Assembly: GCA_016181405.1 (NCBI GenBank)
Contig: JACOZJ010000002.1
Span: forward strand, 138,608-202,607
Length of the DNA stretch: 64,000 nucleotides
Direction of reading: 5' to 3'
Origin: Candidatus Wildermuthbacteria bacterium
Lineage (GTDB): Bacteria; Patescibacteriota; Minisyncoccia; Minisyncoccales; UBA10102
Positions 1,716 through 35,235 of the stretch are shown piece after piece. The first letter of the stretch is position 1, and each line of letters begins with the position of its first letter. Both the position numbers and the translations under genes were made by a program. Below the pieces are notes generated by a model, which saw only the letters and a list, made by a program, of their open reading frames with translations, was not told the DNA's origin and ran no database searches.

Positions 1716-1744
1716 ATTGTAAGGGATATACTCTATTTATTCAA
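1716..1744 (-). promoter_or_regulatory. sigma70-type promoter
   Basis: Minus strand TTGAAT-N17-TACAAT. The -10 overlaps the first ATG of the ORF-track model. Confidence 0.55.
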
Positions 1745-1775
1745 GATTATCCTCAAAAACAAAGGGGGCGAGACC

Positions 1776-2288: not shown

Positions 2289-2427
2289 GGCTTCCCCCCT
2301 CTTCAGATAAGGTGCTTGATATCTTCGTTAAAGATAACTCGTTCGAAAAAATAGGTAAACTCCTAAAATACTTTTCAAAAGAAAACAAAAAGCCGGAGTA
2401 CGCACTTGCGCTAACCCCCGACTTGCT

Positions 2428-3069: not shown

Positions 3070-3172
3070 ACCCCACCTCCAGCCAAAGTTCATGCTTCTC
3101 TATATCTATAAGACCAAAAATAAAGCTCTATGTCAAACTTCCATCGGTATGATATTGTGCTATACTGAATCC

Positions 3173-4102: not shown

Positions 4103-4165
4103 AGGAAAAGAAGAGCGGGCCACGATTTCTCGTGCCCGCTTTTGTTGTTGATGCGCAAACGCATC

Positions 4166-5398: not shown

Positions 5399-5445
5399 GT
5401 CTCTATCTCCTTCCGCAACGCTCTGCGCTGCTAAATTGTAGGGTG

Positions 5446-6597
5446 CTATGGAATCCGGAAAGGATTGTTTCCGGACTTTGCTTCAGATATCATTTGTCCC
5501 ACAAGCAGGTTCCAACTCACAAAGTTTGGAGCCGCCAACGGTTTTCCGGTGTCTGCGTTATAATTCTCGTGCATCCCACCGGACCTTTTGATATCTTCCA
5601 AGCAAAGCCTGGAAATAATCACTGCGAGGCGTTGCGCCTCTCGCTGAAATCCGTAATTCAAAAGCGCATGCATTGTCAAATAATTTACGATCGGCCACAC
5701 GGGTCCCTGCCAGTTTGAATAAGGTTTTATCGTATTCGCTTGGTTATAATCTGGATCGTCCTTCGACAAACATCGTACCCCATATCTTGCCCAAAGGTGT
5801 TTTGGATTCAAGATATATCGCTTTACCATCTGCCTTCCCCGTACTTGAGGAACTATGCCAGCCCATAAAGGTATGACGTTCGAGTAGGTAACACGTTTCA
5901 CGAATTCCCCTGTTTTTCGATCGCGATTATAGAAGATTTCGGCTTCTTTATCCCAAAGATGTTTAAGAATTGCTCTCTTCAGCATTTCTGCTTTTTCCCG
6001 ATATTTCTGGACATCTTTTCTCTTTTTTAAGCGCTTGGCAAGAAATGCAAGAGCAAGATATTCCCGATAAAGAAATATATTAAGATCTGCGGCTAAAATG
6101 CTTCCGTTTTCATAACCATGCACCGCAAGATTATTGTCAGCGCCAGATTCCATTGCGTCATACCAACACCCCAATCCAAACTCTTTATCGAAGTAAACTT
6201 TCTCGCGATATTCTACTGCCTTTTTAAGCTTCTCCCAATACGAAAGTACCCAAAAGAAATCTTCTAGATATTTCGATGCAAAATAGCATCCCTGCGCAAG
6301 AAACGGCTTTATATGCTTCAATCTTCGATCGACCCCATCAGGAGTCAGGAGACCCGGCGTAAACCCAGTCAGCTGAACTTTTTCCAAATAATTTAACGCC
6401 CAGTTCTTCAGATAAATTGCTTCGGAAGGGATTTGTGAAGCTAACGCCATTCCTACAAAGAAACCGTCCCAATCCCATTGCTCTGCATACGGCCCTCCTG
6501 GCACAAGATAGTCGTGTTTAAGGAAACCTTGCGCGCGCCGCTTCACAAGAGCTTTCCTGTAATCAAGCTCTTTTTGCAATTGTTGTTCAAAATTCAT
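5446..6597 (-). CDS. (alpha/alpha)6-barrel glycoside hydrolase, GH63/GH37-like
   Basis: WDWDGFFVGMAL, AMESGADNN, NWQGPVWPIVNY and GMHENYNADTGKPL motifs. The start is moved to ATG 6597 (MNFEQQ), giving an 11-nt overlap with the upstream gene. Confidence 0.65.
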   Translation of the reverse strand: MNFEQQLQKELDYRKALVKRRAQGFLKHDYLVPGGPYAEQWDWDGFFVGMALASQIPSEAIYLKNWALNYLEKVQLTGFTPGLLTPDGVDRRLKHIKPFLAQGCYFASKYLEDFFWVLSYWEKLKKAVEYREKVYFDKEFGLGCWYDAMESGADNNLAVHGYENGSILAADLNIFLYREYLALAFLAKRLKKRKDVQKYREKAEMLKRAILKHLWDKEAEIFYNRDRKTGEFVKRVTYSNVIPLWAGIVPQVRGRQMVKRYILNPKHLWARYGVRCLSKDDPDYNQANTIKPYSNWQGPVWPIVNYLTMHALLNYGFQREAQRLAVIISRLCLEDIKRSGGMHENYNADTGKPLAAPNFVSWNLLVGQMISEAKSGNNPFRIP

Positions 6598-7405
6598 GCT
6601 TTTTTGTCGTTTGTCTTCTTTCGGGGAAACAAATCTGATTACGCACATTGCACCACTTGCCTTCAAACATATACCCTGCAAGCTTACCTTCTTTTGCCAA
6701 CTTCGGGAATATATCTTTTTCAAGCGACGCAATTTTCTCTTTGGGAATGTAATCGAAAATTTCCGGACTAAAACAGAAAATACCCGCTGAAATCACCCGC
6801 GAAACCCCTTCCTTTTCTTTTGGCTTTTCTGCAAAGGCAACAATTTTCTCTCCCTTCATCTCCACCGCCCCGTATAAAGAGGGGTCCTCAATGGAAGTTA
6901 AGGCAACCGTAGCCGTCGCATCTGCTTGTGCGTGATAGGCGGCAAAATCCACAAGGTCGAGTTCCACCACTACGTGGGAATATAATACAAAGAATAAATC
7001 GCCCCCCACAAATTTCTTTGCCGACAATACGGCGCGCGCAGTCCCAATTTTCTCTTCCTCCTGCAGCTGGTATGTAATTTTTAAGCCATACTTTGAGCCA
7101 TCGCCTAAAGTTTTTTGTGCTTCTTTCTCACCCTTATGGAGCGAAAGGACAACTTCTTTTATGCCGTGCGTTCGCAAAAGCTCTAACCCATGCTCAATTA
7201 CCGGCTTGCCTTCGAAAGAAGTAGTACAAACAAAATCTTTATGCCCTGCGATAATAAGGGCTTTTTGTACATTGGCGCCAAGCGCTTGGTTCAAAAAATA
7301 CTCGATGGCGTGCGAACGGTTCCGAATAGTCTTCCCGTCTATCGCGCGGTCAAGTCTTTTTAAGATGTCGTTTTTGAGGGTTATGGCAATTTTACTGCGC
7401 TGCAT
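6587..7405 (-). CDS. ribbon-helix-helix (CopG/NikR-like) domain fused to a sugar-phosphate nucleotidyltransferase-like domain
   Basis: The N-terminus SKIAITLKNDILKRLDRAIDGKTIRNRSHAIEYFLNQAL has an RHH pattern. The remainder has an NTP_transferase-like layout (GTARAV, EKDIFPKLAKEGKLAGYMFEGKW), but the GxGTRL signature is degenerate (IIAGHKDF). ATG 7438 lies inside the -10 box, so I use 7405. Confidence 0.6.
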   Translation of the reverse strand: MQRSKIAITLKNDILKRLDRAIDGKTIRNRSHAIEYFLNQALGANVQKALIIAGHKDFVCTTSFEGKPVIEHGLELLRTHGIKEVVLSLHKGEKEAQKTLGDGSKYGLKITYQLQEEEKIGTARAVLSAKKFVGGDLFFVLYSHVVVELDLVDFAAYHAQADATATVALTSIEDPSLYGAVEMKGEKIVAFAEKPKEKEGVSRVISAGIFCFSPEIFDYIPKEKIASLEKDIFPKLAKEGKLAGYMFEGKWCNVRNQICFPERRQTTKKHEF

Positions 7406-7502: not shown

Positions 7503-9999
7503 GAAAAGCAATCTCCGGGAGCCTATCCCGGACTCTATGCAACAAACAAAATCTCCTTCTGAACCTCAAGACGACTTACGCAATAAGCATCTCCTTGTAG
7601 TAAACTCCGGATACCGAAGAAAAGAATTTATTCTCAAGCGTATCCAAGAACTTGGCTGCAATATTATCCTCTTGAACAAAGAGAGGAATTGGGCGCAAAA
7701 ATACGTAGATTCTTTTATTCTTGCGGACACAAACAATCACTCAGAAAGCCTCGAAGCTGTAAAAAAATACGCCGAGCATAGCCCTATTGATGGCGTTATT
7801 ACTTTTTGGGAAGACGACGTGCTGCTTTGCGCCAAAATCGTGGATATGCTTGGTCTCCCCGGTATCCCCTACCGAGTAGCGAGAGTGGCAAGAAATAAAT
7901 ATCTTTTCCGGGATTTCTGCAAAGAGGCCGGGCTCCCAACACCTCAACACCGTACTATTTCCTCGCAGGCCGATGTTGATTTCGTGATAGAACACTTTAA
8001 CTTTCCGGTTATAGCCAAACCAGTATACGGCTCAAGTTCGGCTTTAGTAGTGAAGATAGAGAAGAAACGAGATCTCCAAAAAATAATCCGGTATATTTCA
8101 GAGAACATTTCAGAAAAAATGGAATCTGCTTTGATGGCAGGATCTCAAATCTTTGTAGAAGAATATCTAGACGGACAAGAGGTGGATATTGATATGCTCG
8201 TCCAAAATGGAAAGGTAAAATTTCACTCCATCACCGATAACGAACCGACCGACGAGCCGTTCTTCATTGAAGTCGGAGACTCCATACCCTCAAGTCTCTT
8301 GGAAGATAGCCAGCAAAAGCTGTTCGAAATGGCATCGGAAACGCTTGAAAAACTGGGAATCCAGCAGGGATGTATACACTTTGAAGCAAAGTGGACCAAG
8401 AGAGGCCCTTTCCCCATTGAGGTAAACCTTCGCATGGGCGGAGACTATGTGCACTCTTTGGTGAAAGGATGTTGGGGTGTGGATCTTGTGGAATACGCGG
8501 CAAAAATCGCTTTGGGCTTATATATTAAGCCAGAAAAACCTACTCAACCCTTACAGTATCTTAGGGGACAGTGTTTTCTTTCCGATTATTCTGGCGTTCT
8601 TGTCGAATTAGACGTCGACGAAGAACTCTACAAAAAACAGTATTTCGAACAGTTCTACTTTCTGAAAGAAGTGGGAGACCCGGTACTTGTACCTCCCGAA
8701 GGCTATGAATACTTAGGATGGGTAGTCGTGAAAGGAGAAAGCCCTGTGGTCGCGCAAAATAATCTAGAGGAGGCGCTCGAATGTGTCCGCTATACCGTGG
8801 CGAAATATCATCCCACTTCCTCGGTAGGTAAAACTATCAGGAAAACCCCTCTCTCCTTAGCTTCCTTTGCACGAGAACAAATTAAAGCTTCCGCATCTGT
8901 AGAAAGAGTGAAAGCCTTCAAAAAAGAAGGGCTCCACGTGGGAGTACTCTGCAATATCTATACCAAGGAAACTTCGCAAAATCCTGTGGAGAAAGAAGCA
9001 GAAGAAGATATTACTACCTCCGCGATTCAAATAAAAAACGCTCTTGAAAAGAAAGGGCACACCGTGGAGCTCTTCAACATGAATCAGCTTCTCCCCACAA
9101 TAAACCGTCTCGCGAGAAGAGACGTGGATATTGTGTTTAATGCTTGCGAGCGAATCAACAACTCCAGTCTCCTCAAACCCCATGCTTCGGCAATATTGGA
9201 TATTTTAAATATTCCCTATACAGGATCCAACCCGGTCGCGAGAGCCATTAGCATTGATAAAATCATAACAAAGAAAATTCTTAAGTATCACGGCATCCCC
9301 ACTCCGGAATTCGACTATCTTTTTTCTGTTGACGACAAAATTAATCCCGAACTGGAATACCCCCTTATTGTAAAGCCCGCAAACACCGACGACAGCATCG
9401 GAATCACTCAAAAATCAGTAGTTACCAACGAACAAAAACTCTATGCGCAAGTAAAAGAAATCATCACGGTATACAAGAGGCCAGTGCTTGTGGAAGAGTT
9501 CATCCAGGGGTCAGAGCTCGACGTGGGAGTTATTGGAAACCGCGGCAACATCCGTGTACTCCCCATCGAACGCACTCTCTTCAATAAACTACCACGCGGA
9601 AAATGGGGAATTTATTCTTACGAAGACAAATGGGGAGAAGGAAATATTCATGATTACTTCACAGTTGAATCGCCTGCTAGGATCCCCAAAAAGCAAATGC
9701 AGCTTGTTTCGGAAATCGCCATAGACGTATTCAACGCGCTCGGCTGCCACGACTATGCAAGAGTCGAGATGCGCATGGACGAACAAGGCAATATCTATGT
9801 CATCGAGCTGAATGCCCACCCCACCCTGGAAGAAGGAAGCTATTTTGGAAGAGTCGGGAAAAAACTCGGGCTTTCATTCGGCGATATTCTGCAGGAAATT
9901 ATTGAAGCAGCCGCGGGACGCTACGAAAACAAACCTCCTTTTTATCATCTTCAAGGAGGTATCGAAATCCCTCTTGAGACTATTCCACCGACAAAGTAA
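7501..9999 (+). CDS. fusion of two ATP-grasp ligase modules (L-amino-acid-ligase-like N-half, D-Ala-D-Ala-ligase-like C-half)
   Basis: N-half: FPVIAKPVYGSSSALV, IFVEEYLDGQEVDIDMLV, IEVNLRMGGD. C-half: YPLIVKPANTDDSIGI, VLVEEFIQGSELDVGVIG, YARVEMRMDEQGNIYVIELNAHP. The start may be ATG 7537 if the promoter call is right. Confidence 0.75.
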   Translation: MKSNLREPIPDSMQQTKSPSEPQDDLRNKHLLVVNSGYRRKEFILKRIQELGCNIILLNKERNWAQKYVDSFILADTNNHSESLEAVKKYAEHSPIDGVITFWEDDVLLCAKIVDMLGLPGIPYRVARVARNKYLFRDFCKEAGLPTPQHRTISSQADVDFVIEHFNFPVIAKPVYGSSSALVVKIEKKRDLQKIIRYISENISEKMESALMAGSQIFVEEYLDGQEVDIDMLVQNGKVKFHSITDNEPTDEPFFIEVGDSIPSSLLEDSQQKLFEMASETLEKLGIQQGCIHFEAKWTKRGPFPIEVNLRMGGDYVHSLVKGCWGVDLVEYAAKIALGLYIKPEKPTQPLQYLRGQCFLSDYSGVLVELDVDEELYKKQYFEQFYFLKEVGDPVLVPPEGYEYLGWVVVKGESPVVAQNNLEEALECVRYTVAKYHPTSSVGKTIRKTPLSLASFAREQIKASASVERVKAFKKEGLHVGVLCNIYTKETSQNPVEKEAEEDITTSAIQIKNALEKKGHTVELFNMNQLLPTINRLARRDVDIVFNACERINNSSLLKPHASAILDILNIPYTGSNPVARAISIDKIITKKILKYHGIPTPEFDYLFSVDDKINPELEYPLIVKPANTDDSIGITQKSVVTNEQKLYAQVKEIITVYKRPVLVEEFIQGSELDVGVIGNRGNIRVLPIERTLFNKLPRGKWGIYSYEDKWGEGNIHDYFTVESPARIPKKQMQLVSEIAIDVFNALGCHDYARVEMRMDEQGNIYVIELNAHPTLEEGSYFGRVGKKLGLSFGDILQEIIEAAAGRYENKPPFYHLQGGIEIPLETIPPTK

Positions 10000-10864
10000 A
10001 AAGCACTCTCGCGTTCTCTGTGGTGGCGCGAGCCACGTCTTCAAAACTTACCTTTTTGATGCGCGCGATTTCTTCTGCCACATATCGTACGAACGAGGGT
10101 TCGTTTCTTTCTTGTCCCGCCGCAGGAGGAACAAGATAAGGAGAATCTGTCTCCAGAACAATGCGTTCAAGCGGGATAGATGCAATAACTTCTTTTGGAT
10201 CCGGCAAAGCCGGCACGTCTTTGAAAATCAACCCATTAAATCCTACATATAACCCGAGCTCAAGAAATTCCTGCGCCTGCTCTGCAGTACCTGTATAGCT
10301 ATGAACCACCCCCCGCAAGTGGTTAATAGTTAGCAGTTCAAGTAAGTCTTCGTGCGCTTTCCGGCAATGAAGAATAACAGGCAGGCCGAATTCACCTGCC
10401 AGATCCATCTGCTTTTGCAGGATTTCCTTCTGCTTTTGTTTGATTTCTTCCCGCCTTGTTTTGCTCTTCGGGAAATAATAATAGTCCAACCCAACCTCCC
10501 CTACCGCCACTACTTTCCCTTTTGAAGAACCAGAAATAAGTTCCTTATACGCCTCGTAATCGAATTCTTCCGCCCGGGTTTCAAACGTTTCCCACGGCTG
10601 CTTTGCACCAGCATCCTCTGATTGAGTTTCCAGCACCTCAACCTTTCTTTGTTCTCCTACATGAATCGGATGCAAACCAATCGCAGCATATACCCCGCGT
10701 TCGTAACCCTCCGCAATTTCCACGGCCCTCTTTGAAGTGGAATATTGGGATCCTGGCATAATAATCCAGGTGTTATCCCTAAGAGCGCGGAGAATTACCT
10801 CATCTCCATCCTCCTTAAAGGCACGAAAATTTACGTGCCCATGAGTATCTATAAGCATATACAT
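9980..10864 (-). CDS. tatD: TatD-family metal-dependent hydrolase
   Basis: MLIDTHGHVNF, HPIHV, EVGLDYYY, PVILHCRKAHEDLL, VVHSYTG, ETDSPYL. Confidence 0.85.
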   Translation of the reverse strand: MYMLIDTHGHVNFRAFKEDGDEVILRALRDNTWIIMPGSQYSTSKRAVEIAEGYERGVYAAIGLHPIHVGEQRKVEVLETQSEDAGAKQPWETFETRAEEFDYEAYKELISGSSKGKVVAVGEVGLDYYYFPKSKTRREEIKQKQKEILQKQMDLAGEFGLPVILHCRKAHEDLLELLTINHLRGVVHSYTGTAEQAQEFLELGLYVGFNGLIFKDVPALPDPKEVIASIPLERIVLETDSPYLVPPAAGQERNEPSFVRYVAEEIARIKKVSFEDVARATTENARVLFTLSVE

Positions 10865-10880
10865 ATTTTTAGCTTATTCG

Positions 10881-10920
10881 GGAAAAAAAGAAAGAGGGCT
10901 CGTGTTTGCTACACGAGCCC
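10881..10920 (-). terminator. intrinsic terminator
   Basis: Minus strand GGGCTCGTG-tagcaaa-CACGAGCCC followed by TCTTTCTTTTTTT. Confidence 0.7.
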
Positions 10921-11232
10921 TGAAGTTAGGGATGTCTGGATGAGACTTGCCAATTGCGCGAGCCCCTCCTTCATAGAGGAAGGATGCAACCGCACAATCG
11001 CGCAAGGCTTCGCACTGCGCGGAAACCAAGATGGAGATTCTCCCTCTGGAACATCTGGAATAATGGCGGCGAATTTCTCTTTCCACTCCGCAGGCAATGC
11101 TTCCTCGCCTCCCTTCTTAAGAACGATCCTCGGCACTCCCATTGTCATGGATTGGATTTCATGCAAGAGACGAACCCAAGCCTCCCCTCTATTTCTCCAG
11201 TCGTCTAAGGAGAAAACTATATGGGTTTCCAT
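10909..11232 (-). CDS. hypothetical protein (107 aa)
   Basis: METHIVFSLDDWRNRGEAW..., with ATG after a GGGGGGGG run. GC-rich; no family recognised. Confidence 0.5.
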   Translation of the reverse strand: METHIVFSLDDWRNRGEAWVRLLHEIQSMTMGVPRIVLKKGGEEALPAEWKEKFAAIIPDVPEGESPSWFPRSAKPCAIVRLHPSSMKEGLAQLASLIQTSLTSGLV

Positions 11233-27848: not shown

Positions 27849-28478
27849 TCAATTTTGCAATATCTGCGAAAGGTGCTCTTGCGATATTTCGCGCAAACGA
27901 GTTTCATTTATACCCCGAAAATCAATATCCTGCAAGGTTTCGCTGTCGCTCTTCAAAAGAACTCCGATAAACTCGGCAATACTCGGATCTTTTACGACGA
28001 TTTGAGCGAGGGAAGGCGAATACCCTGCGGAAGCAAGAAGATTCCAAAGAAAATAATAAGCTAAAATTTTTAACTCGCGCCCTTTCAGCGCAGGCCGGTT
28101 CAAAACCGAAAGCGTTTCTTGCAGCAAATTCCAAATCTCCTCATCCTGTTCCTGTCCATGCAGCAGTTCATCGGCAACCTGCGCGAATCTCTCCATGACA
28201 CGCAATCTCTCCAAATTTTTGCGAATACCAGAGTAGAAGCAAACACAAACGGCGTCGGTAATAGTTTTATACACTTTCCCTTGGATAAACTCGATTTCCG
28301 CCAGATAAAAAAGTTCCAGCCCTCCCCGGAGCTTGGAAGTAATCTTGCGTTCGGAAACCGCCCGCAAGCGCAGCTTGCCAAAATCTTTGGTAAACACCGT
28401 AAACACGCGATCTGCCTCGCCTATATCCTGCTTTCGCAAAATAATCCCTTGAGTGCGATAGTGTGTAGCCATAGACAA
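27849..28478 (-). CDS. recO: DNA repair protein RecO
   Basis: TQGIILRKQDIGEADRVFTVFTKDFGKLRLRA (OB-fold N-terminus). The size and gene context fit. Confidence 0.8.
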   Translation of the reverse strand: MSMATHYRTQGIILRKQDIGEADRVFTVFTKDFGKLRLRAVSERKITSKLRGGLELFYLAEIEFIQGKVYKTITDAVCVCFYSGIRKNLERLRVMERFAQVADELLHGQEQDEEIWNLLQETLSVLNRPALKGRELKILAYYFLWNLLASAGYSPSLAQIVVKDPSIAEFIGVLLKSDSETLQDIDFRGINETRLREISQEHLSQILQN

Positions 28479-28481
28479 GCC

Positions 28482-31400
28482 TTACTTCGCGCTTCCCGCT
28501 TTCCGGATGCCGAGCCGAAGCGTTCTGCCTTCGGCAGAAAACTCCTGTTCAATATCGAACTCCTCCTTCGAATCATCGCTCTCTTGCATCTCTTTTACAC
28601 CCACGGCAGGCATAATCATTTTCTGATTCTCCCGCAGAATTTTTCTCAACTCTTCTGCCCCTTGGTAGCGCAAGTAAATCCTGTCTTGCGGCTTGTATCC
28701 CGCTTTCTTTCGCATTTCCTGAATATTGCGCAGGATCTCGCGCAGCAATCCTTCTTTTTGCAACTCGGGCGTAATTGTCGTATCCAGCTCCACTTCTCCC
28801 TTTAGATTTTTATCAAACGTTACCTCCTTTACATTCAGTTCGTCTTTTATCAAGCCCATAAACTCTCCCTTCAGTTTGCTCTTATCACTTTTAACTTTTA
28901 ACTTCTGCAGCGGCTGGCGTACCTTTATCCCCGCCTTAGCCCGCTCTGCCAATCCCTTTACCACAAACTCCCGAGCTTGCTCCATTTCTTTCTCAAGCCT
29001 TGCACTAATCTTTTTTGAATCTGTTTTGGGCCAGTCTTCCCAATGCACACTCCCCTTACCTCCAACCTCGCCATAAATATGTTCGCTCAAAAACGGAATA
29101 AAAGGCGCAGTTAGCTTGCTTGTTTCCAAAAGTACCGATCCCAATACAAAGTATGCATCTTGAAACTCTTTCGCGTTGCGGGGATTTTGAAAGCGCTGTC
29201 GAGACCGCCGAATATACCAGAGAGATAAATCGTCAATCACAAAACTTTCTATTGCGCGCGCAGCTCCGGTAATATCGTATTCATCAAACCGTTTTGTCGC
29301 TTCTCTAATAGTGCTGTGCAACCTTGAAATCACCCACCGATCTAAGATATTTTTCGTTTTGAAGTTTTTGGCCTTAGGACTTGCTTGAGCATTGAACCTT
29401 GGGGTTTGGGATTTTCTGTACGTTTCGTAAAACACAAAGGAATTCCACAGAGTCAAAATAAACTTGCGCATCGTCTGCTGCAAATCTTTTTCCGCGAATA
29501 ATTTAGGATCCCATGGATGGTTTAACGTGAAAAAATACCAGCGTAAGGTATCCACGCCGTACTTTTCAATCATATCCCATGGCCTAACCACATTCCCTTT
29601 GGATTTGGACATTTTCTCTCCTTTCTCGTCTAAAATATGCCCAAGTGAAATGACATTCTTATACGGCGCTTTCTGCCCCAAAAGAGTGGCTACGGCAAGC
29701 AACGTATAAAACCACCCTCGCGTCTGATCAATACCTTCCGTAATGTAATCTGCAGGATATGGTTTAGGCGCCTTGATACGCCCTTGTTTATCCGCCTTAG
29801 CTTTGTCAGCCGCAGAGGCAAACGGCATAGACCCTGAATCAAACCATACATCCACCACGTCTTTTACGCGCTTCATTCGTCCTTTCTCGCACTTTACGCA
29901 GTCAAATTCGATCGCATCGATATATGGCCGGTGCAAATCAATTTCCATTTCCTCGTTGTACGGAAAGCGGTGAAATTCAATGGAGCGCGCTTCTCCTGTT
30001 TCAATCGCTTTTTTCATACGAAACCGTATCGTTTCCTCCCGCGAATACCCTCGCATTAACCCTTCCAACATCGTTAAGGGCAACTCATGACTTACCAGCA
30101 AGATCGTCTTGCCGCTATACTTCTTCTCCATATTTCCCATGAACTTATATACGCGCTTCTGCACCTGGAGATACGTCTCTCCTTCAGGAGGCCCTTCTTG
30201 AAATCTTCGCAGGTAATGCTGGAGAGGCGTTTCGCCCTCTCTCCGGAAATACGCCCCAAATTCATCTATATGCTTCCCGTTAAATATACCCATGTCGCTC
30301 TCTCGGAGTCCTTGGTCGTATTCCACCTTCAAACCAAGTTCGCCCGCCACAATTTCTGCTGTCTCTTTGGTACGCAGCAAATCAGAAGAAACAATCGCAT
30401 CTATCTTTTTCTTTTTCAAAAGATTGGCAAGTCCCTGTATTTGTTTCCTCCCTTTGGGCGTCAATGGAGAAGGATTTTTTTCCGGCCAAGACGCGCTTAC
30501 ATTTGTAAGCTGCCGCTCTGAATGCCCATGCCGAAGAATATAATAGGTGTTGTTCGGCTTTTGCAGTTGCTCCAAGTCCTGCACAGAACCAACTACCTCT
30601 CGATGGGCGCATATGCCGCATTCCCATACGGGCAAAGGAGTGCCCCAATAGCGCTCGCGGGAAAACGCCCAATCTTTTACCTCTGCTAACCATTCACCCA
30701 TTCTGCCTGTTTTAATATGCGGCGGAACCCAGTTGATGCTTTTATTGTTGGCAATCAACTGTTTTTTCACCTTCTGCATGTTCACGAACCAGCTGTCCTT
30801 AGCATAATACAGCAAAGGAGTAGAGCATCGCCAACAAAACGGATATTCGTGCTCGTACAGTTCTTCTTTGTACAAAAGATTTCTTTTCTGGAGATCTTCG
30901 ATAATCAAGGGTTCAGCTTCCTTCACAAATACGCCCTTCCATTGAGGAACCAGCTCATTGAATTTTCCTTCTTCGTCTACCGTATGCCTTTTGGGAAGGT
31001 TCACTTGCTGGCCCAGCTTATAGTCGTCTTCCCCATACATAACCGCTGTGTGCACGACTCCTGTTCCTTCTCCCTCCTGCACAAAATCAGCGGCATATAC
31101 TTTGTGAGAAACAGGGGACTTAAGCGGAAAAATATCAAAAACTTGTTTGTACGGAATCCCTATCATTTCTGCGCCTTTAAAAACATCCTGTTCGTTTTTC
31201 GGGGTCTCGGCTAAAATTCCTTTTTCCACAAGCAATTTATAGCTTGCAAGACCAAGAACAAGCCAACGCTTTTCTCTCTCAGGGTCAGGAATACAAACAT
31301 AATCGAGCTTCGGATTTACCGCAAGCGCAACATTACCCGGTAATGTCCAAGGCGTAGTTGTCCAAGAAAGTATAGAAGTGTTTTCCCATTCTTTATCTGG

Positions 31401-32060
31401 AGGGATAACTTCGAATCGTACGTAAACAGATTTTTCTTTGACGGTTTTGTAACCTTGGGCAAGTTCATGGGAAGATTCTGGCGTGCCACACCGCGGACAA
31501 TACGGCACCACTTTGTAATCTGTGTATAGCAAACCCTTCCCCCAAAACTGCTTGATAATCCACCACAGGCTTTCCATATATTCTTTGCTGTAGGTAATGT
31601 ATGGATTATCGGTGTCCAGCCAAAAGGCGATGCGCCGCGTTAAATCATCCCATTCCTTTTTGTATTCCCAGACCGATTGCTTGCATGCCTTGTTGAATTT
31701 CGCAATGCCGTATTGTTCAATTTCTTTCTTGGAGCTAAGCCCGAGCTTTTTCTCGATCTGCAACTCCACGGGGAGACCGTGCGTATCCCAACCGGCCTTT
31801 CTTCCAACATAAAATCCGCGCATTGTTTTGTAGCGGCATATAACATCTTTAAACGCGCGGGAAAGCACATGGTGAATGCCCGGACTTCCATTCGCCGTAG
31901 GAGGCCCCTCATAAAACACGAAGCGCTTCCCCTTTTGGCGCTTTTGCAACGATTTCTCAAACGCCTTTTGCTCTTTCCAGCGCTTGAGTATTTGCTCTTC
32001 CAATTTCGGAAAATCCGCTTCCATACGCCTTACGGTATCATCTTTGAAGCGAATTTTCAA
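28482..32060 (-). CDS. ileS: isoleucine--tRNA ligase with an inserted histidine-phosphatase (PGAM-like) domain
   Basis: PPTANGSPGIHH (HIGH), KMSKSKGNVV (KMSKS) and the WTTTPWTLPGN editing domain. Residues about 503-705 (YYILRHGHSERQ...LLVSHELPL) interrupt the WECGIC...FDCVKC zinc-knuckle region. Confidence 0.9.
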   Translation of the reverse strand: MKIRFKDDTVRRMEADFPKLEEQILKRWKEQKAFEKSLQKRQKGKRFVFYEGPPTANGSPGIHHVLSRAFKDVICRYKTMRGFYVGRKAGWDTHGLPVELQIEKKLGLSSKKEIEQYGIAKFNKACKQSVWEYKKEWDDLTRRIAFWLDTDNPYITYSKEYMESLWWIIKQFWGKGLLYTDYKVVPYCPRCGTPESSHELAQGYKTVKEKSVYVRFEVIPPDKEWENTSILSWTTTPWTLPGNVALAVNPKLDYVCIPDPEREKRWLVLGLASYKLLVEKGILAETPKNEQDVFKGAEMIGIPYKQVFDIFPLKSPVSHKVYAADFVQEGEGTGVVHTAVMYGEDDYKLGQQVNLPKRHTVDEEGKFNELVPQWKGVFVKEAEPLIIEDLQKRNLLYKEELYEHEYPFCWRCSTPLLYYAKDSWFVNMQKVKKQLIANNKSINWVPPHIKTGRMGEWLAEVKDWAFSRERYWGTPLPVWECGICAHREVVGSVQDLEQLQKPNNTYYILRHGHSERQLTNVSASWPEKNPSPLTPKGRKQIQGLANLLKKKKIDAIVSSDLLRTKETAEIVAGELGLKVEYDQGLRESDMGIFNGKHIDEFGAYFRREGETPLQHYLRRFQEGPPEGETYLQVQKRVYKFMGNMEKKYSGKTILLVSHELPLTMLEGLMRGYSREETIRFRMKKAIETGEARSIEFHRFPYNEEMEIDLHRPYIDAIEFDCVKCEKGRMKRVKDVVDVWFDSGSMPFASAADKAKADKQGRIKAPKPYPADYITEGIDQTRGWFYTLLAVATLLGQKAPYKNVISLGHILDEKGEKMSKSKGNVVRPWDMIEKYGVDTLRWYFFTLNHPWDPKLFAEKDLQQTMRKFILTLWNSFVFYETYRKSQTPRFNAQASPKAKNFKTKNILDRWVISRLHSTIREATKRFDEYDITGAARAIESFVIDDLSLWYIRRSRQRFQNPRNAKEFQDAYFVLGSVLLETSKLTAPFIPFLSEHIYGEVGGKGSVHWEDWPKTDSKKISARLEKEMEQAREFVVKGLAERAKAGIKVRQPLQKLKVKSDKSKLKGEFMGLIKDELNVKEVTFDKNLKGEVELDTTITPELQKEGLLREILRNIQEMRKKAGYKPQDRIYLRYQGAEELRKILRENQKMIMPAVGVKEMQESDDSKEEFDIEQEFSAEGRTLRLGIRKAGSAK

Positions 32061-32063: not shown

Positions 32064-33809
32064 TTACATTTTCTCTGGAGCTTTAATACCAAGAAGGTTA
32101 AGAGAGTTTTTGATAACTTGTGCTGTGGCAGAAGTGAGTAAAAGACGGAATTGCTTTTGCTCATCACTCTCTGCCTGCAATACAGAATAGGTATTGTAAA
32201 AATGATTATAGCGCTGGGCTAACTCAAAAACAAAATTGCAAATCAAATTCGGAGAGAATTTTTCCCCTGCTTCCTCCACTACTTCAAGAAATCTATATAT
32301 CCATCTTAAGATATCCAACTCTTCTTTCGCTAGCTCCGCTGAATTTCGAATTTCGAATTTCGAATTTCGAATTTTCTGCGCTTTGCGCAGAATACTCTTG
32401 CATCGTGCGTACGTATATTGAAGGTAAGGGCCAGAATCTCCCTCCAGACTCAACGATTTTTCGAAGTCAAAGATTAGATCTTTGCCAATGCCCACCCGCA
32501 AGAATGCGTACTTTATCGCTCCTACCGTTACCATTTCCAGAATTTTTTCTTTTTCTTTGTCCGTTATCTCACTGCCAGAACTTTCAGCGATTACCCGAGC
32601 TCTCTTTTTTACTTCTTCCAGCAATTCTTCTGCCGTAATTACATTTCCAGTCCTGCTCGACATTTTTCCTTCTGGAAGACGCACCATGCCGTGCCCGATA
32701 TGTTTTGTTTTTCCTGCTAATTCGGGATTTATTTGCTTTAAAGCGGCAAGAAGAACCTTGAAATAATCGCTTACTTCGTTTCCGGTGATAACAATAGAGA
32801 AATCGTAGCGAAAATCTTTATATTTTGTGGGGGCCAAACCCAATTCTTTTGCTTCATACGTGGGAAGTCCTTGCGAATTGATGAAGACACGATTGTGCAG
32901 CCCATATTTTTCTCCTGGGAAAATAATCGCTCCTTCGCTTTCTTCAAATACTCCTTTTTTGAGGTTTTCTTGCACCAGCTTTGCACCAACTTTTCCAACC
33001 TCGCTTTCAAAATAGTAAAAATCAAATTTCGTGCCAAGACGTTTGTAAAGAGTTTCAAAATACTCGAGGCTCCATTTCCTTCCTATCTTATACAACTTAT
33101 TTATTCCTTTGTCTGAACTCTCATATACAGCCCTATTGATTCGCTGCAACTCTTCTTTTTCTTCGTCCTCTGCCAAAACTCCAGCCGCATAACACATTCC
33201 TAACCAACGAGCTTTAGCCGACAAAGAATCACTCTCCTTTGGCATCTCGTGGCTCAACTGCTTCATTCCCCAAATTGCTTTTGCCACATGCATGCCGACA
33301 TCTCCCTGATAGTTTGCTCTTTTTGCGTTTGCTCCATTTGCTTCCAAAATTCTTGAGAGCGACTCTCCAACGGTATTTGTATAGAGATGCCCAATATGAA
33401 ATTCTTTAAAGGGATTTGGATCGGTAAACTCAATCATTACTTTCTTCCCTTTCAGTGATGGGCTTTTGCCAAAATCATCTCCCTCTTTAAAAACTCGAGC
33501 CAATTCTGAAAACAGGTAGCTTTTCGATATATAGAGATTAATAAAACCGGGGCCGGCAACCTCGACCTTGTCGAACAATTTTGAATGTTGAACTTCTAAC
33601 TTTGAGACGATAAGGTCAGCGATTTCGCGGGGATTTTTGGCAAGCTGTTTTACCAATTGCAAAGCAACAGGCGTCGCATAATCCCCACGACCTTCCTCCT
33701 CTGGATGCTCTAAAGGAATCTGCTCAATGTGAGCAGATCCGATCTTGCCCTCTTCTTGGAGCTCTTGGATAGCCTTCCCTATTAATTGCTTAATTGTCTC
33801 TTGTATCAT
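32064..33809 (-). CDS. argS: arginine--tRNA ligase
   Basis: FTDPNPFKEFHIGHL (HIGH-like), GKMSSRTGNVI, and a DALR anticodon-binding C-terminus ending in M. Confidence 0.92.
   Translation of the reverse strand: MIQETIKQLIGKAIQELQEEGKIGSAHIEQIPLEHPEEEGRGDYATPVALQLVKQLAKNPREIADLIVSKLEVQHSKLFDKVEVAGPGFINLYISKSYLFSELARVFKEGDDFGKSPSLKGKKVMIEFTDPNPFKEFHIGHLYTNTVGESLSRILEANGANAKRANYQGDVGMHVAKAIWGMKQLSHEMPKESDSLSAKARWLGMCYAAGVLAEDEEKEELQRINRAVYESSDKGINKLYKIGRKWSLEYFETLYKRLGTKFDFYYFESEVGKVGAKLVQENLKKGVFEESEGAIIFPGEKYGLHNRVFINSQGLPTYEAKELGLAPTKYKDFRYDFSIVITGNEVSDYFKVLLAALKQINPELAGKTKHIGHGMVRLPEGKMSSRTGNVITAEELLEEVKKRARVIAESSGSEITDKEKEKILEMVTVGAIKYAFLRVGIGKDLIFDFEKSLSLEGDSGPYLQYTYARCKSILRKAQKIRNSKFEIRNSAELAKEELDILRWIYRFLEVVEEAGEKFSPNLICNFVFELAQRYNHFYNTYSVLQAESDEQKQFRLLLTSATAQVIKNSLNLLGIKAPEKM
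32341..32375. repeat. heptanucleotide microsatellite (GAATTTC)x4 plus 1 imperfect copy, inside argS
   Basis: gaatttc gaatttc gaatttc gaatttc gaatttt. It encodes QKIRNSKFEIRNS in a linker. Confidence 0.95.
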
Positions 33810-33893
33810 TTATTACAGTCTATCCTGTAGCACATTTTTTGTCTAAAATAAACATTGCCCAAAAGCTTAACCCAATGCTACAGTAAACTCATA

Positions 33894-34340
33894 ATGGCGA
33901 ACTATGCGGAAAACAGGAAAGCGCATTTTAACTACGAAATCTTGGAAACATTCAAGGCAGGGTTAGTATTGCAGGGACAAGAGGTAAAATCGGTAAAATT
34001 GGGGAGAATTCAGATTGCAGGATCGTATGTGGTTACCCGCGGGGAAGAGCTATTTTTGCGCGGAGCAACCATTTCTCCCTATCAGCCCGCGAACGCGCCC
34101 GCTGGCTACAATCCAGAGCGCGATAGAAAACTCCTGTTACGAAAAGAGGAAATCCGATATATTCTTGGAAAATCAAAGGAAAGAGGCTTGACTTTAGTAC
34201 CCTTAAAGGTGTATAATAACAAACGCAATCTCAAGCTTGAGTTTGGCTTAGCTCGAGGGAAAAAGACGAGAGACAAAAGAGAAGATATCAGAAAACGGGA
34301 AGCCAAGCTGCAGATTGAACGCGCCTTAAAATACGAGTGA
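33894..34340 (+). CDS. smpB: SsrA-binding protein
   Basis: NRKAHFNYEILETFKAGLVLQGQEVKS, and the tmRNA follows immediately. ATG 33894 is preferred over the TTG extension. Confidence 0.92.
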   Translation: MANYAENRKAHFNYEILETFKAGLVLQGQEVKSVKLGRIQIAGSYVVTRGEELFLRGATISPYQPANAPAGYNPERDRKLLLRKEEIRYILGKSKERGLTLVPLKVYNNKRNLKLEFGLARGKKTRDKREDIRKREAKLQIERALKYE

Positions 34341-34343
34341 ATA

Positions 34344-34708
34344 TGGGGATGTCCAGCTTTGACAGCGAGCCAAAGCAATTCTCGCGATGGGAGTACGGCC
34401 TCCTTAAAACCGAGGCAATACAACTGCCAACATTTTTAAGCCGGCACAACCGGCTCTTGCCTACGCATAACGCCAACAGGCGAATTTGCAGGCCATTCGC
34501 TCTTTGACTCTCGATAAAAGAAGCGGGTGTCAACCATCGAGATAGATAGCTTTTTCGAAGGTCCGGGAGCTATTGATCTTTAAGGACCATCAAAGAGAAA
34601 GTGGGTTCGTCCAGTTCTTGCACTCTCTCTTTCAAAAAACTGGACTATCATCGTAGATAGAATTTCCTCGTCTCGCTGGACGCGGGTTCGACCCCGCCAT
34701 CTCCACCA
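34344..34708 (+). ncRNA. ssrA: tmRNA (ssrA)
   Basis: 5' GGGGATGTCCAGCTTTGACAGCGAG and a 3' tRNA-like end GGACGCGGGTTCGACCCCGCCATCTCCACCA. The candidate tag ORF at 34426-34470 is GCC AAC ATT TTT AAG CCG GCA CAA CCG GCT CTT GCC TAC GCA TAA (ANIFKPAQPALAYA). Confidence 0.9.
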
Positions 34709-34725
34709 AACAATCAACAATCACT

Positions 34726-35235
34726 TTGCAGAAACGCATTTACATAAACAACCAGATACGGGCTACCGAAGTAAGGCTCATTGATGAAACCGGAAAGCAA
34801 CTAGGAGTCTTGCCTCTTGCAGAGGCCCTCAACCTTGCCAAAGAACGAGGTTTTGACTTAATCCAGGTAACCGAACGTCTGGAACCTCCAGTGTGCAAAC
34901 TCGGTGATTATGGAAAATATCTTTATCAGCAAGAGAAGAAAGCAAAAGAAACAAAAAAGCAGGATAGTGGTGAGCTAAAGGAGGTCCGACTCACCTTTAC
35001 CATCTCAAGCCACGACTTGGAAACGAGAGTAAGGCAGGCAGAAAAGTTTTTGCAAAAAGGAAACCGTGTTCGCATTACGCTTCGCCTCCGAGGCCGCCAA
35101 AACGCCCTTGAAGGATACGCGAAAGAAAAGATAGAAAAGTTTATGGAAGCGCTCACTGCTCGAATTTCCGTCAAGAAAGAAAGAGAGCTAAAAAAAGAAC
35201 CGCGCGGGCTATCCATTATTGTAGTTAAAAGTTGA
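34726..35235 (+). CDS. infC: translation initiation factor IF-3
   Basis: INNQIRATEVRLIDETGKQLGVL and the C-domain KEVRLTFTISSHDLETRVRQAEKFL. It has a non-ATG (TTG) start, which is common for infC. Confidence 0.9.
   Translation: MQKRIYINNQIRATEVRLIDETGKQLGVLPLAEALNLAKERGFDLIQVTERLEPPVCKLGDYGKYLYQQEKKAKETKKQDSGELKEVRLTFTISSHDLETRVRQAEKFLQKGNRVRITLRLRGRQNALEGYAKEKIEKFMEALTARISVKKERELKKEPRGLSIIVVKS

What the first reader, a model, noticed from the sequence alone, without database searches (positions are those of the whole stretch)
29946..30554. Histidine-phosphatase (PGAM-like) domain inserted into the zinc-knuckle region of IleRS
The 1192-aa IleRS is intact, with HIGH, KMSKS, the editing domain and the anticodon-binding domain all present. 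Between WECGICAHREVVGSVQDLEQL and DLHRPYIDAIEFDCVKCEKG, which are the two CXXC halves, it carries about 200 extra residues. These begin YYILRHGHSERQ (the RHG catalytic motif of the histidine phosphatase superfamily) and include LTPKGRKQ, SSDLLRTKETA and LLVSHELPL (the second catalytic His). In other IleRS sequences I know, these two segments are separated by only a few tens of residues.

The catalytic residues appear retained, so the insert may be an active phosphatase or phosphomutase module fused into an essential synthetase. Possible roles include acting on a nucleotide by-product or on tRNA ends, or a regulatory function. I am not aware of a described aaRS with this insertion.
Basis: partly seen in the sequence, partly recalled or inferred. 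Interest (0 to 1): 0.72.

Follow-up and report, generated by a model that had tools for sequence, protein, structure and literature searches.

The report
Histidine phosphatase nested inside isoleucyl-tRNA synthetase
The enzyme that loads isoleucine onto tRNA in this Parcubacteria genome carries a complete, apparently active phosphatase inside it, and related bacteria make the same phosphatase from the gene next door, so the two enzymes probably work together in a way not yet described.

Summary
The ORF at 28482-32060 (-) is a type-2 IleRS. It carries a 208-residue insert (aa 499-706, nt 29943-30566) between the two Cys pairs of the CP3 zinc knuckle. The insert is a branch-1 histidine phosphatase (HP): Pfam PF00300 E=2.8e-36, AF2 pLDDT 95, Foldseek TM about 0.74 to CobC, PspA and PhoE.

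It is not a chimera. All 120 nearest full-length homologues have it, as do 133 of the best 150 clusters at 50% identity and 58 of 80 species-level genomes. R510, H511, R563 and H658 are essentially invariant, and dN/dS is 0.085 against about 0.15 for the synthetase body.

New here: in the other 22 of 80 genomes the orthologous phosphatase is a free-standing 190-235 aa gene just upstream of an insert-less ileS (argS-hp-ileS-recO). The two layouts have interchanged at least 6 times. Other IleRSs carry extra HP domains at two further sites.

This favours a working partnership, but the substrate is unknown and no curated subfamily fits. Two of five unfused relatives sampled blind have no phosphatase nearby. 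No paper describing it was found.

The parts
28482..32060 (-). ileS: type-2 isoleucyl-tRNA synthetase with nested phosphatase (maximal ORF 1192 aa; probable start Met13 at nt 32024, giving 1180 aa)
   Evidence: ORF. TIGR00392 871.6 bits. PDB IleRS hits 8c8w and 1ile at E about 1e-245, and the editing domain 1wk8 matches aa 203-407. P0085 is 100% identical and 1180 aa long.
29943..30566 (-). The whole insert, aa 499-706 (208 aa): linker, histidine-phosphatase domain, linker
   Evidence: Borders from the alignment to 1ile and 8c8u. Present in 171 of 171 full-length homologues. dN/dS 0.085 against L009.
30009..30542 (-). His_Phos_1 core, aa 507-684
   Evidence: Pfam PF00300, E=2.8e-36. AF2 domain model pLDDT 95, pTM 0.91. 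Foldseek to CobC, PspA, Rv2419c and PhoE at TM about 0.74.
30528..30533 (-). Arg510-His511 of the RHG motif (His511 is the predicted phospho-acceptor nucleophile)
   Evidence: 171 of 171 conserved. Invariant in alignments A1, A2 and A3.
30372..30374 (-). Arg563 (phosphate pocket, SSDLLRTKETA motif)
   Evidence: 170 of 171 conserved.
30300..30302 (-). Glu587 (predicted general acid, LRE motif)
   Evidence: At least 90% conserved in A2 and invariant in A3.
30087..30089 (-). His658 (second catalytic His, VSHELPL motif)
   Evidence: 171 of 171 conserved.
30567..30629 (-). CP3 zinc knuckle, first half (aa 478-498; Cys481, Cys484)
   Evidence: Aligns to Tth Cys461/464. Cys conserved in 157-161 of 171. 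CP3 of TtIleRS carries the zinc motif (PMC7191050).
29868..29942 (-). CP3 zinc knuckle, second half (aa 707-731; Cys721, Cys724)
   Evidence: Aligns to Tth Cys502/504. Cys conserved in 160-161 of 171.
30549..30566 (-). N-linker, aa 499-504 (LQKPNN). It corresponds to the N-terminal residues (MK[FL]NN) of the free-standing orthologues.
29943..29972 (-). C-linker, aa 697-706 (HRFPYNEEME). It contains the (L/F)P(Y/H/R)(N/D) motif, which is shared by all fused proteins and absent from unfused partners.
   Evidence: Pro700 is at least 90% conserved.
31869..31880 (-). Class I signature motif in its swapped form, GIHH (aa 61-64)
   Evidence: GXHH occurs in about 137 of 171 homologues. The motif is described in PMC10485003.
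29601..29615 (-). KMSKS loop (aa 816-820)
   Evidence: Present in 146 of 171 as KMSKS.
32064..33809 (-). argS, directly upstream. In unfused lineages the phosphatase gene lies between argS and ileS.
   Evidence: Pfam tRNA-synt_1d, DALR_1 and Arg_tRNA_synt_N. Synteny.
27849..28478 (-). recO, directly downstream (conserved synteny marker)
   Evidence: Pfam RecO_N and RecO_C. Synteny.

Best explanation
WHAT IT IS (shown). The insert is a complete PhoE/CobC-like branch-1 histidine phosphatase. It is grafted through two short linkers onto the tip of the CP3 zinc knuckle of the housekeeping type-2 IleRS of a Candidatus Wildermuthbacteria (Parcubacteria) genome. It is the orthologue of a free-standing protein of about 195 aa that sister lineages encode immediately upstream of an insert-less ileS (argS-hp-ileS-recO).

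HOW IT MOST LIKELY WORKS (inferred). It is a second, independent hydrolytic active site carried on IleRS. His511 attacks a phosphomonoester held by Arg510, Arg563 and His658. Glu587 protonates the leaving group. The phospho-histidine intermediate is then hydrolysed.

The domain keeps the small two-helix cap seen in small-substrate phosphatases and lacks the dPGM signature. I therefore think it removes a phosphate from a small, nucleotide-like group connected with the aminoacylation cycle. Candidates are AMP, another adenosine phosphate, or a 3'(2')-phosphorylated adenosine end. I do not think it changes the synthetase chemistry itself.

In unfused lineages the same job would be done by the separate protein, co-expressed with IleRS and probably bound to it.

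My confidence by step: domain identity 0.95; catalytically active 0.8; functionally coupled to IleRS rather than merely co-located 0.55; nucleotide-like small substrate 0.35.
For: Identity and fold.

Activity under selection: R510, H511 and H658 are conserved in 171 of 171, R563 in 170 of 171, and E587 in at least 90%. dN/dS for the insert is 0.085, against 0.146-0.156 for the IleRS body.

Breadth: all 120 best full-length homologues, down to 52% identity, carry PF00300. Of the best 150 representatives at 50% identity, 133 are fused. Of 80 GTDB species loci, 58 are fused at the identical site.

Partnership:
- The other 22 of 80 loci have the orthologue as a separate ORF upstream of ileS, and 19 of those are within 60 nt or overlap it. 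Three independent metagenomic examples give the same layout.
- The free-standing protein matches the insert end to end.
- At least 6 fused/unfused switches are needed on the IleRS tree in 100 of 100 bootstraps. Sister pairs stay sisters across all gene segments.
- Additional HP domains have been captured by IleRS at other sites: the loop after WFDSG...HYPFE in L025, the loop opening the anticodon-binding domain in P0248, tandem copies in P0309 and P0347, and four copies in P0243.
- No protein other than IleRS carries this HP clade among the top 150 clusters.

Phosphatase rather than mutase: the nearest sequence and structure neighbours are CobC, PspA, PhoE, Rv2419c and HFP, and the dPGM models score far below their cutoffs.
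Against: - No biochemical data exist, and the substrate is a guess.
- No curated subfamily model reaches its cutoff.
- The whole neighbourhood is syntenic in these genomes. recO is as faithfully adjacent to ileS as the phosphatase is, so adjacency alone is weak evidence of coupling.
- When sampled from the IleRS side, 2 of 5 unfused relatives (L095, L096) have no phosphatase within 3 kb. IleRS can therefore do without a linked copy.
- Type-2 IleRSs elsewhere (Thermus, Priestia, eukaryotes) work without it.
- CP3 is structurally variable among IleRSs (PMC7191050), so it may simply be a permissive insertion site.
- I could not obtain model coordinates, so I do not know whether the phosphatase pocket faces the synthetic site, the editing site or the tRNA path.
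Confidence: 0.5

Rival explanations
1. Hitch-hiker. The phosphatase is an ordinary housekeeping metabolic enzyme, such as a phosphoserine-, sugar-phosphate- or cofactor-phosphate phosphatase. Its gene happened to lie next to ileS in a very stable operon and was embedded in a permissive surface loop. Activity is retained for its own sake, and there is no mechanistic link to IleRS.
For: The nearest characterised relatives all act on small metabolites. The whole argS-ileS-recO-DUF11-class II aaRS-M16 block is syntenic, so adjacency is not specific to the phosphatase. Two of five unfused IleRS relatives have no phosphatase nearby. CP3 topology varies between IleRSs. A 31%-identical relative sits beside SHMT, as a phosphoserine phosphatase might.
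Against: An internal in-frame insertion is not what simple loss of an intergenic spacer produces. HP domains have been captured by IleRS repeatedly, at three or more sites and from different HP lineages. This HP clade is found fused to nothing else. Purifying selection on the insert is at least as strong as on the synthetase body.
Confidence: 0.3
2. tRNA end-healing. The domain removes a 3'- or 2'-phosphate (or pyrophosphate) from the A76 end of tRNA-Ile, so that damaged or toxin-modified tRNA can be recharged on the same enzyme.
For: It is tethered to the enzyme that must receive a free 2'/3'-OH. The nearest relatives accept ribosyl-phosphate substrates such as CobC's. From my own knowledge, untested here: the E. 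coli CCA-adding enzyme has an HD-domain phosphatase proposed to heal tRNA 3' ends, and toxSAS toxins pyrophosphorylate the CCA end.
Against: No histidine phosphatase is known to act on RNA ends. Such damage is not specific to tRNA-Ile, yet only IleRS carries the domain. Up to four copies per protein are hard to explain as end repair. The domain is no more basic than the rest of the proteome. The geometry relative to the tRNA path is unknown.
Confidence: 0.12
3. Protein phosphatase. The domain reverses inhibitory phosphorylation of IleRS itself, for example on the KMSKS loop by a HipA-like toxin kinase, or of a nearby translation factor.
For: From my own knowledge, untested here: branch-1 members include the protein phosphatases SixA, PGAM5 and Sts-1, and HipA/HipT kinases inactivate GltX and TrpS by phosphorylating the ATP-site loop. 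Having several HP domains at different positions around the catalytic core would suit cis-acting surveillance. The GXHH motif hints that this IleRS is under attack from inhibitors.
Against: The domain retains a cap like those of small-substrate phosphatases rather than an open SixA-like site (secondary structure; best fold matches). SixA scores only 28-38 bits against a cutoff of 74.5. No kinase was seen in the neighbourhoods I examined.
Confidence: 0.06
4. Non-catalytic module. The fold is kept only as a structural, tRNA-binding or phosphate-sensing domain.
For: A degenerate IleRS paralogue in L057 keeps the domain with RHG changed to RPG, which shows the fold can persist without the nucleophile.
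Against: In the functional enzymes the nucleophile His and both pocket Arg residues are invariant in 171 sequences, and the acid Glu is at least 90% conserved.
Confidence: 0.03
5. Artefact. The insert is an assembly chimera or a mis-joined contig.
For: None found.
Against: The same in-frame architecture occurs in more than 170 full-length proteins from NCBI, JGI, ENA and Logan assemblies, and in 58 species-level genomes. There is no composition break. The full-length AF2 model is confident (pLDDT 88.6, pTM 0.82).
Confidence: 0.005

Closest known systems
Type-2 (eukaryote-like) bacterial IleRS, e.g. Thermus thermophilus IleRS (1ILE) and Priestia megaterium IleRS2 (8C8W)
   Same: All synthetase parts are present: the Rossmann halves, the CP1 editing domain, CP2, CP3 with a 4-Cys zinc knuckle, KMSKS, the anticodon-binding domain and the DUF5915 C-terminus. 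The swapped GXHH signature occurs in part of IleRS2.
   Different: Those enzymes have a loop of 7-9 residues where this one has a 208-residue phosphatase.
Small branch-1 histidine phosphatases: PhoE (1H2E), CobC alpha-ribazole phosphatase (6E4B/6NRU), PspA phosphoserine phosphatase (4IJ5), Rv2419c, riboflavin-pathway HFP (9MMH)
   Same: The fold (TM about 0.74), the size (about 200 aa) and the RHG / R / E / H catalytic set are the same.
   Different: Sequence identity is only 20-27%. No curated equivalog cutoff is reached. The domain is nested in, or operon-linked to, an aminoacyl-tRNA synthetase, and it carries a clade-specific SxWPEK motif.
Bifunctional RNase H / acid phosphatase (Rv2228c type; NCBIfam PRK07238)
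   Same: It is a CobC-like histidine phosphatase fused to an enzyme that acts on nucleic acids. It is also the best-scoring NCBIfam phosphatase model for the insert (95.1 bits).
   Different: It is an end-to-end fusion, not a nested domain, and the partner enzyme is different. The score is far below the 326-bit cutoff, so the insert is not a member.
IleRS with an N-acetyltransferase domain (NCBIfam NF040702, ileS_w_GNAT)
   Same: It is precedent for an IleRS that carries an extra enzymatic domain. P0262 combines HP and GNAT in one IleRS.
   Different: The domain family is different. The window protein scores 317 bits against a cutoff of 1999.
Hydrolytic domains built into synthetases (CP1 editing domain of IleRS/ValRS/LeuRS; INS of ProRS) and their free-standing counterparts (YbaK, AlaX); from my own knowledge
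   Same: The logic is the same: a second hydrolytic site exists in some lineages as an inserted domain and in others as a separate protein.
   Different: Those domains hydrolyse aminoacyl esters. This one is predicted to hydrolyse phosphate monoesters, and no role in fidelity is known for it.

Membership tests
Histidine phosphatase superfamily, branch 1 (Pfam PF00300) | Profile match above the curated threshold | tested here: met
   125.5 bits against 21.7, aa 507-684 covering profile positions 2-173 of 194.
Histidine phosphatase superfamily, branch 1 (Pfam PF00300) | RHG motif with the nucleophilic His at the end of strand 1 | tested here: met
   R510-H511-G512. R and H are conserved in 171 of 171, G in 165 of 171.
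Histidine phosphatase superfamily, branch 1 (Pfam PF00300) | Second Arg, second His and an acidic proton donor completing the phosphate pocket | tested here: met
   R563 in 170 of 171, H658 in 171 of 171, E587 at least 90% conserved.
Histidine phosphatase superfamily, branch 1 (Pfam PF00300) | Alpha/beta fold of the superfamily | tested here: met
   AF2 model pLDDT 95. There are 315 PDB matches at E<=0.001, and the top 50 are all histidine phosphatases or mutases.
Histidine phosphatase superfamily, branch 1 (Pfam PF00300) | Phosphoryl transfer through a phospho-histidine intermediate | not testable with these tools
   Needs an enzyme assay and the H511A mutant.
Cofactor-dependent phosphoglycerate mutase (dPGM) | Curated equivalog or subfamily score (TIGR01258, NF038349 and the PRK models) | tested here: not met
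   dPGM_arch scores 71.6 against 225, and GpmB 71.1 against 261. For the free-standing orthologues, pgm_1 scores 27-35 against 81.7.
CobC alpha-ribazole phosphatase | TIGR03162 equivalog score | tested here: not met
   83.1 bits for the insert and 94-99 bits for free-standing orthologues, against a cutoff of 162.9.
PspA-type phosphoserine phosphatase / SixA phosphohistidine phosphatase | Equivalog scores (NF045917, TIGR00249) | tested here: not met
   PspA scores 68-89 against 350, and SixA 28-38 against 74.5.
Isoleucyl-tRNA synthetase (TIGR00392), type 2 | Equivalog score, with best relatives among IleRS2, archaeal and eukaryotic enzymes | tested here: met
   871.6 bits against 621.4. 8c8w and 1ile match at E about 1e-245, against about 1e-95 for type-1 enzymes.
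Isoleucyl-tRNA synthetase (TIGR00392), type 2 | Class I signature motifs (HXGH or its IleRS2 variant GXHH; KMSKS) | tested here: met
   GIHH at aa 61-64 and KMSKS at aa 816-820. The GXHH variant is documented as functional in IleRS2 (PMC10485003).
Isoleucyl-tRNA synthetase (TIGR00392), type 2 | CP1 editing domain and anticodon-binding domain present | tested here: met
   The IleRS editing-domain structures 1wk8, 1wny and 1udz match aa 203-407. Anticodon_1 covers aa 907-1053 and DUF5915 covers 1090-1187.
Isoleucyl-tRNA synthetase (TIGR00392), type 2 | Isoleucine-specific aminoacylation activity | not testable with these tools
   Inferred only. No other ileS is present in the 64-kb window.
Acquired mupirocin-resistance IleRS (MupA / MupB) | NCBIfam exception-model score | tested here: not met
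   820-828 bits against a cutoff of 1900.

The most novel reading that the evidence does not exclude
IleRS in a large part of the Parcubacteria depends on a dedicated phosphatase step that is not part of the textbook aminoacylation cycle. It could heal phosphorylated tRNA-Ile ends, clear an inhibitory phosphorylated nucleotide at the active site, or reverse phospho-inactivation of the synthetase. On this reading, evolution has hard-wired the step repeatedly by capturing histidine-phosphatase modules at several points of the enzyme. That would be a new class of synthetase-embedded accessory activity, comparable in status to editing domains.
Probability: 0.25. Interest if true: 0.85.

Novelty: new variant of a known kind. 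Interest (0 to 1): 0.68.

Why it matters
Aminoacyl-tRNA synthetases are among the best-studied enzymes. Their extra domains have repeatedly revealed new biology, such as editing, trans-editing factors and signalling functions.

Here an essential synthetase carries a catalytically intact phosphatase in hundreds of uncultivated species. The same phosphatase is the neighbouring gene in sister lineages, the two layouts have interconverted several times, and further phosphatase copies have been captured at other sites. That is a classic fused-versus-separate gene pair, which predicts a physical and functional partnership nobody has examined.

The prediction can be tested directly with recombinant protein. 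The result could expose a phosphate-removal step linked to tRNA charging, or at least a clean natural example of how an operon neighbour becomes an internal domain.

There is also a practical side. NCBI labels many of these proteins only 'class I tRNA ligase family protein', so the architecture is currently invisible in annotation.

Tried and rejected
1. Chimera or artefact. Rejected on recurrence in independent assemblies and the absence of a composition break.

2. Assignment to a known phosphatase subfamily. No curated model passes for either the insert or the free-standing orthologues. The fold search gives only generic small phosphatases.

3. Geometry of the phosphatase pocket relative to the IleRS sites. 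The full-length model is confident, but its coordinates are not exposed to scripts and the afdb50 library was unavailable. This remains unresolved.

4. Charge as a proxy for tRNA binding. The HP pI (8.5) is about equal to the IleRS body pI (8.35) and the proteome median (8.4), so it is uninformative.

5. Docking surface from positions that differ between fused and unfused enzymes. 14 of the top 60 fall in aa 745-806, including a loop that is longer in fused enzymes and that hosts L025's second HP. Most unfused sequences come from two or three clades, however, so phylogeny confounds the result.

6. Direction of evolution.
   - The body tree needs 6-8 switches and the HP tree 3-8.
   - All fused proteins share linker length and motifs, which argues for one origin of the fused state.
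   - The CP3 flank of L057 resembles a different clade from the rest of its body, which hints at spread of a cassette by recombination.
   - I could not decide between repeated fission, recombinational spread, or an ancestor with both copies. No genome with both an upstream copy and a canonical internal copy was seen.

7. A naturally split IleRS as an intermediate (P0058/L097). It turned out to have an in-frame stop and a frameshift, so it is a degraded gene or a poor assembly.

8. Literature. Seven completed searches found no paper linking IleRS with a histidine phosphatase. The library holds open-access papers and bioRxiv only.

9. Extension of the linkage to more distant phosphatase relatives at about 31% identity. 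They are not next to ileS.
Full report
THE OBSERVATION

The window contains one uninterrupted ORF at 28482..32060 on the minus strand, 1192 aa.

Pfam finds tRNA-synt_1 in two pieces, with His_Phos_1 (PF00300) nested between them at aa 507-684 (E=2.8e-36). It also finds Anticodon_1 and the C-terminal DUF5915. NCBIfam identifies the protein as ileS (TIGR00392, 871.6 bits against a cutoff of 621.4). The best relatives are type-2 enzymes. PDB sequence matches agree: 8c8w and 1ile at E about 1e-245, and the isolated IleRS editing domains cover aa 203-407.

Aligned with T. thermophilus IleRS, aa 498 pairs with Tth 478 and aa 707 with Tth 488. Residues 499-706 (nt 29943-30566) therefore replace a nine-residue loop. 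Cys481/484 and Cys721/724 correspond to the Tth zinc ligands Cys461/464 and Cys502/504. In current IleRS nomenclature this element is the CP3 subdomain, which carries a zinc motif in the Thermus enzyme and differs in topology between IleRSs (PMC7191050).

Two details need correcting:
- The class I signature is not HIGH but GIHH (aa 61-64). This is the swapped GXHH form, which Brkic et al. showed to be functional in IleRS2 and to confer mupirocin hyper-resistance.
- The real start is probably Met13. The NCBI protein is 1180 aa, homologues begin there, and residues 1-12 have pLDDT below 50.

IT IS REAL AND WIDESPREAD

Base composition is even across both junctions.

- A search with the full protein returned 120 listed homologues from 100% down to 52% identity. 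Every one carries PF00300 together with the IleRS domains. The named sources are Candidatus Wildermuthbacteria (the 100% hit, on a 239.5-kb contig), Nealsonbacteria, Yanofskybacteria, Pacebacteria and other Parcubacteria.
- An exhaustive HMMER search of 1.84 billion cluster representatives, using the insert plus short flanks, gave 143 hits below 1e-30. Of the best 150, 133 have the phosphatase flanked in order by IleRS sequence and 15 are free-standing proteins.
In the best 80 loci, 58 have the phosphatase in frame inside ileS at the same position.

The chimera hypothesis is excluded.

THE DOMAIN LOOKS ACTIVE

In a MAFFT alignment of 171 full-length fused proteins, Arg510, His511 and His658 are invariant and Arg563 is present in 170. 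Glu587 is at least 90% conserved. The four zinc cysteines are kept in about 160 sequences.

The insert is more variable overall than the synthetase body (46% mean identity to the window, against 54-59%). Between the window and its nearest relative with DNA (L009), however, dN/dS is 0.085 for the insert and 0.146-0.156 for the body.

AlphaFold2 models are confident. The full-length model has pLDDT 88.6 and pTM 0.82, with the insert at 91-98. The domain alone has pLDDT 95 and pTM 0.91.

Foldseek against the PDB puts the small phosphatase members first: CobC, PspA, Rv2419c, PhoE and the riboflavin-pathway HFP, at TM about 0.74 and 20-27% identity. Mutases align less completely.

No curated NCBIfam model for CobC, dPGM, GpmB, PspA or SixA reaches its cutoff. 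This holds both for the insert and for three free-standing orthologues. The domain is therefore an uncharacterised clade of branch-1 histidine phosphatases, and a phosphatase rather than a dPGM-type mutase.

THE KEY NEW FACT: THE SAME PROTEIN IS THE NEIGHBOURING GENE ELSEWHERE

The closest free-standing homologues (45-53% identity, 189-204 aa) align with the insert from end to end. Their N-terminus, MK(F/L)NNxYYILRHG, corresponds to the fused N-linker. Their C-terminus, TGELRKL, corresponds to the last strand before the fused C-linker.

In three unrelated metagenomic contigs, the gene lies between argS and an insert-less ileS of 931-964 aa. The gaps to ileS are 1, 4 and 38 nt. Downstream come recO, a DUF11/CLIPPER protein, a class II synthetase and an M16 peptidase. 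The window has the same block, smpB/tmRNA/IF3 - argS - ileS - recO - DUF11 - class II aaRS - M16, with the phosphatase inside ileS instead.

In the species-level scan, all 22 non-fused loci have the phosphatase ORF upstream of an insert-less ileS. 19 are within 60 nt or overlapping, and three have 0.9-1.4 kb in between. The unfused enzymes keep a short loop at exactly the site of insertion.

HOW THE TWO LAYOUTS RELATE

A neighbour-joining tree of the IleRS body (917 columns, insert removed) needs 7 fused/unfused changes, and 6-8 in all 100 bootstrap replicates. When the states are shuffled, at least 13 changes are needed.

Several unfused enzymes are sisters of fused ones across every segment of the gene: L082 with L037, L004 with L066, and L001 with L056/L041. 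The change of state is therefore local and not a whole-gene replacement.

All fused proteins nevertheless share linkers of the same length. They also share a C-linker motif, (L/F)P(Y/H/R)(N/D)....(D/N)(L/F)HRPY, that neither unfused partner has. This argues that the fused state arose once.

The phosphatase tree is less discordant with state (3-8 changes), and free-standing phosphatases resemble each other more than they resemble the inserts of their IleRS neighbours.

These facts fit three scenarios: repeated fission, spread of a CP3-plus-phosphatase cassette by homologous recombination (L057's CP3 flank resembles another clade), or sorting from an ancestor that had both copies. I could not decide between them.

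RECURRENT CAPTURE

- L025 carries a second intact phosphatase domain in a different loop, after WFDSGSMPFAQQHYPFEN, equivalent to window aa about 750-768.
- P0248 (1419 aa) has a second copy in the loop that opens the anticodon-binding domain.
- P0309 and P0347 have two copies in tandem.
- P0243 has four copies.
- P0262 combines the phosphatase with a GNAT domain.

The extra copies keep the RHG, Arg and His motifs. They are only 27-40% identical to the primary inserts and to each other, so they are old or independent acquisitions.

Among the best 150 clusters, no protein other than IleRS carries this phosphatase clade.

LIMITS OF THE LINKAGE

More distant phosphatases at about 31% identity are not near ileS.

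I also sampled from the IleRS side: five relatives of an unfused IleRS, chosen only for contig length. All 120 listed relatives of that query lack the insert. Of the five, three have the phosphatase upstream: one directly, one with a NUDIX gene in between, and one 1.6 kb away. Two have none within 3 kb.

The partnership is therefore common but not obligatory. Because the whole operon is syntenic, adjacency alone is weak evidence of a functional link.

INTERPRETATION

Shown:
- A complete histidine-phosphatase domain with an intact catalytic core, under purifying selection, is nested in CP3 of an otherwise normal type-2 IleRS.
- It is orthologous to an operon neighbour in sister lineages.
- The fused and separate forms interconvert.
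- IleRS has captured such domains more than once.

Inferred: the phosphatase works as an independent hydrolytic site that travels with IleRS. The best guess for its substrate is a small nucleotide-like phosphomonoester tied to the charging cycle. I put 0.55 on genuine functional coupling and 0.35 on that substrate class.

The main rival (0.3) is a housekeeping phosphatase that was embedded because its gene was next door and CP3 tolerates insertions. tRNA end-healing (0.12), a protein phosphatase acting on IleRS (0.06) and a non-catalytic role (0.03) are not excluded.

NOVELTY

Seven completed full-text searches found no paper connecting IleRS with a histidine phosphatase. The sequences are public but are labelled only 'isoleucine--tRNA ligase' or 'class I tRNA ligase family protein'.

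Synthetases with built-in or trans-acting hydrolytic modules are a known theme, and NCBIfam already recognises an IleRS with a GNAT domain. I therefore rate this as a new variant of a known kind and not as categorically new. It is a well-supported and directly testable one.

Noticed in passing
window 31869-31880 (-), aa 61-64: The class I signature motif is GIHH, the swapped GXHH form linked to mupirocin hyper-resistance in IleRS2 (PMC10485003). About 137 of 171 fused homologues have GXHH and about 22 have HXGH. Both forms occur in fused and unfused enzymes.
   Followed up: partly
window 32024-32060 (-): The 1192-aa ORF starts at a TTG. The likely real start is Met13 (ATG at 32024), giving 1180 aa as in the NCBI protein. 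Residues 1-12 have pLDDT below 50, and homologues begin at MExxFPKLE.
   Followed up: partly
L025 nt 2145-6248 (CAZQSQ010000020.1): An IleRS of 1368 aa has two intact phosphatase domains. One is at the usual CP3 site (nt 3642-4187). The second is in a different loop about 45 residues downstream (nt 4413-4934), after WFDSGSMPFAQQHYPFEN.
   Followed up: partly
L057 nt 8065-11109 (CAYUUM010000002.1): A second IleRS-like gene of 1015 aa lies directly after the normal fused ileS. Most of its editing domain is deleted, its signature motifs are degenerate, and its phosphatase domain has RHG changed to RPG. It looks like a pseudo-enzyme paralogue.
   Followed up: no
proteins P0248, P0309, P0347, P0243, P0262: These are further IleRS architectures. 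P0248 has a second phosphatase between the KMSKS region and the anticodon-binding domain. P0309 and P0347 have tandem pairs. P0243 has four phosphatase domains after an IleRS N-half. P0262 has an IS200-like Y1 transposase domain, a phosphatase and a GNAT domain in one IleRS ORF.
   Followed up: partly
L089 nt 1233-4082: A leucyl-tRNA synthetase (949 aa) has a NUDIX hydrolase domain at aa 383-504, directly after the editing domain. This is a possible parallel case of a nucleotide hydrolase nested in a class Ia synthetase.
   Followed up: partly
L093 nt 1927-5883: In one Staskawiczbacteria genome, a 148-aa NUDIX gene sits between the free-standing phosphatase and ileS (argS - hp - nudix - ileS). 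L094 and L095 instead have an unannotated 278-aa gene directly upstream of ileS.
   Followed up: no
L097 nt 3705-7242 (JAXOUH010050088.1): A fused ileS is broken by an in-frame stop and a frameshift, so it is a degraded gene or an assembly error. It is followed by HAD phosphatase, HD-domain and metallo-beta-lactamase-fold hydrolase genes before recO.
   Followed up: partly
window aa about 880-905 of IleRS (nt about 29346-29423): A Lys-rich loop at the start of the anticodon-binding domain has low model confidence (pLDDT 61-72). It is the position where P0248 carries its second phosphatase domain.
   Followed up: no
window 33855-35235 (+): smpB (33855-34340), a tmRNA gene (34345-34708, tag ANIFKPAQPALAYA) and infC lie divergently upstream of argS. 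This is ordinary, but the same genes flank the unfused loci, which shows how stable this neighbourhood is.
   Followed up: partly
L069 (QYPD01000003.1): A contig labelled 'Spirochaetia bacterium' carries a typical fused Parcubacteria-type IleRS and is probably mis-binned. Many other loci labelled 'uncultured Candidatus Saccharibacteria' also look like Parcubacteria by gene content.
   Followed up: no
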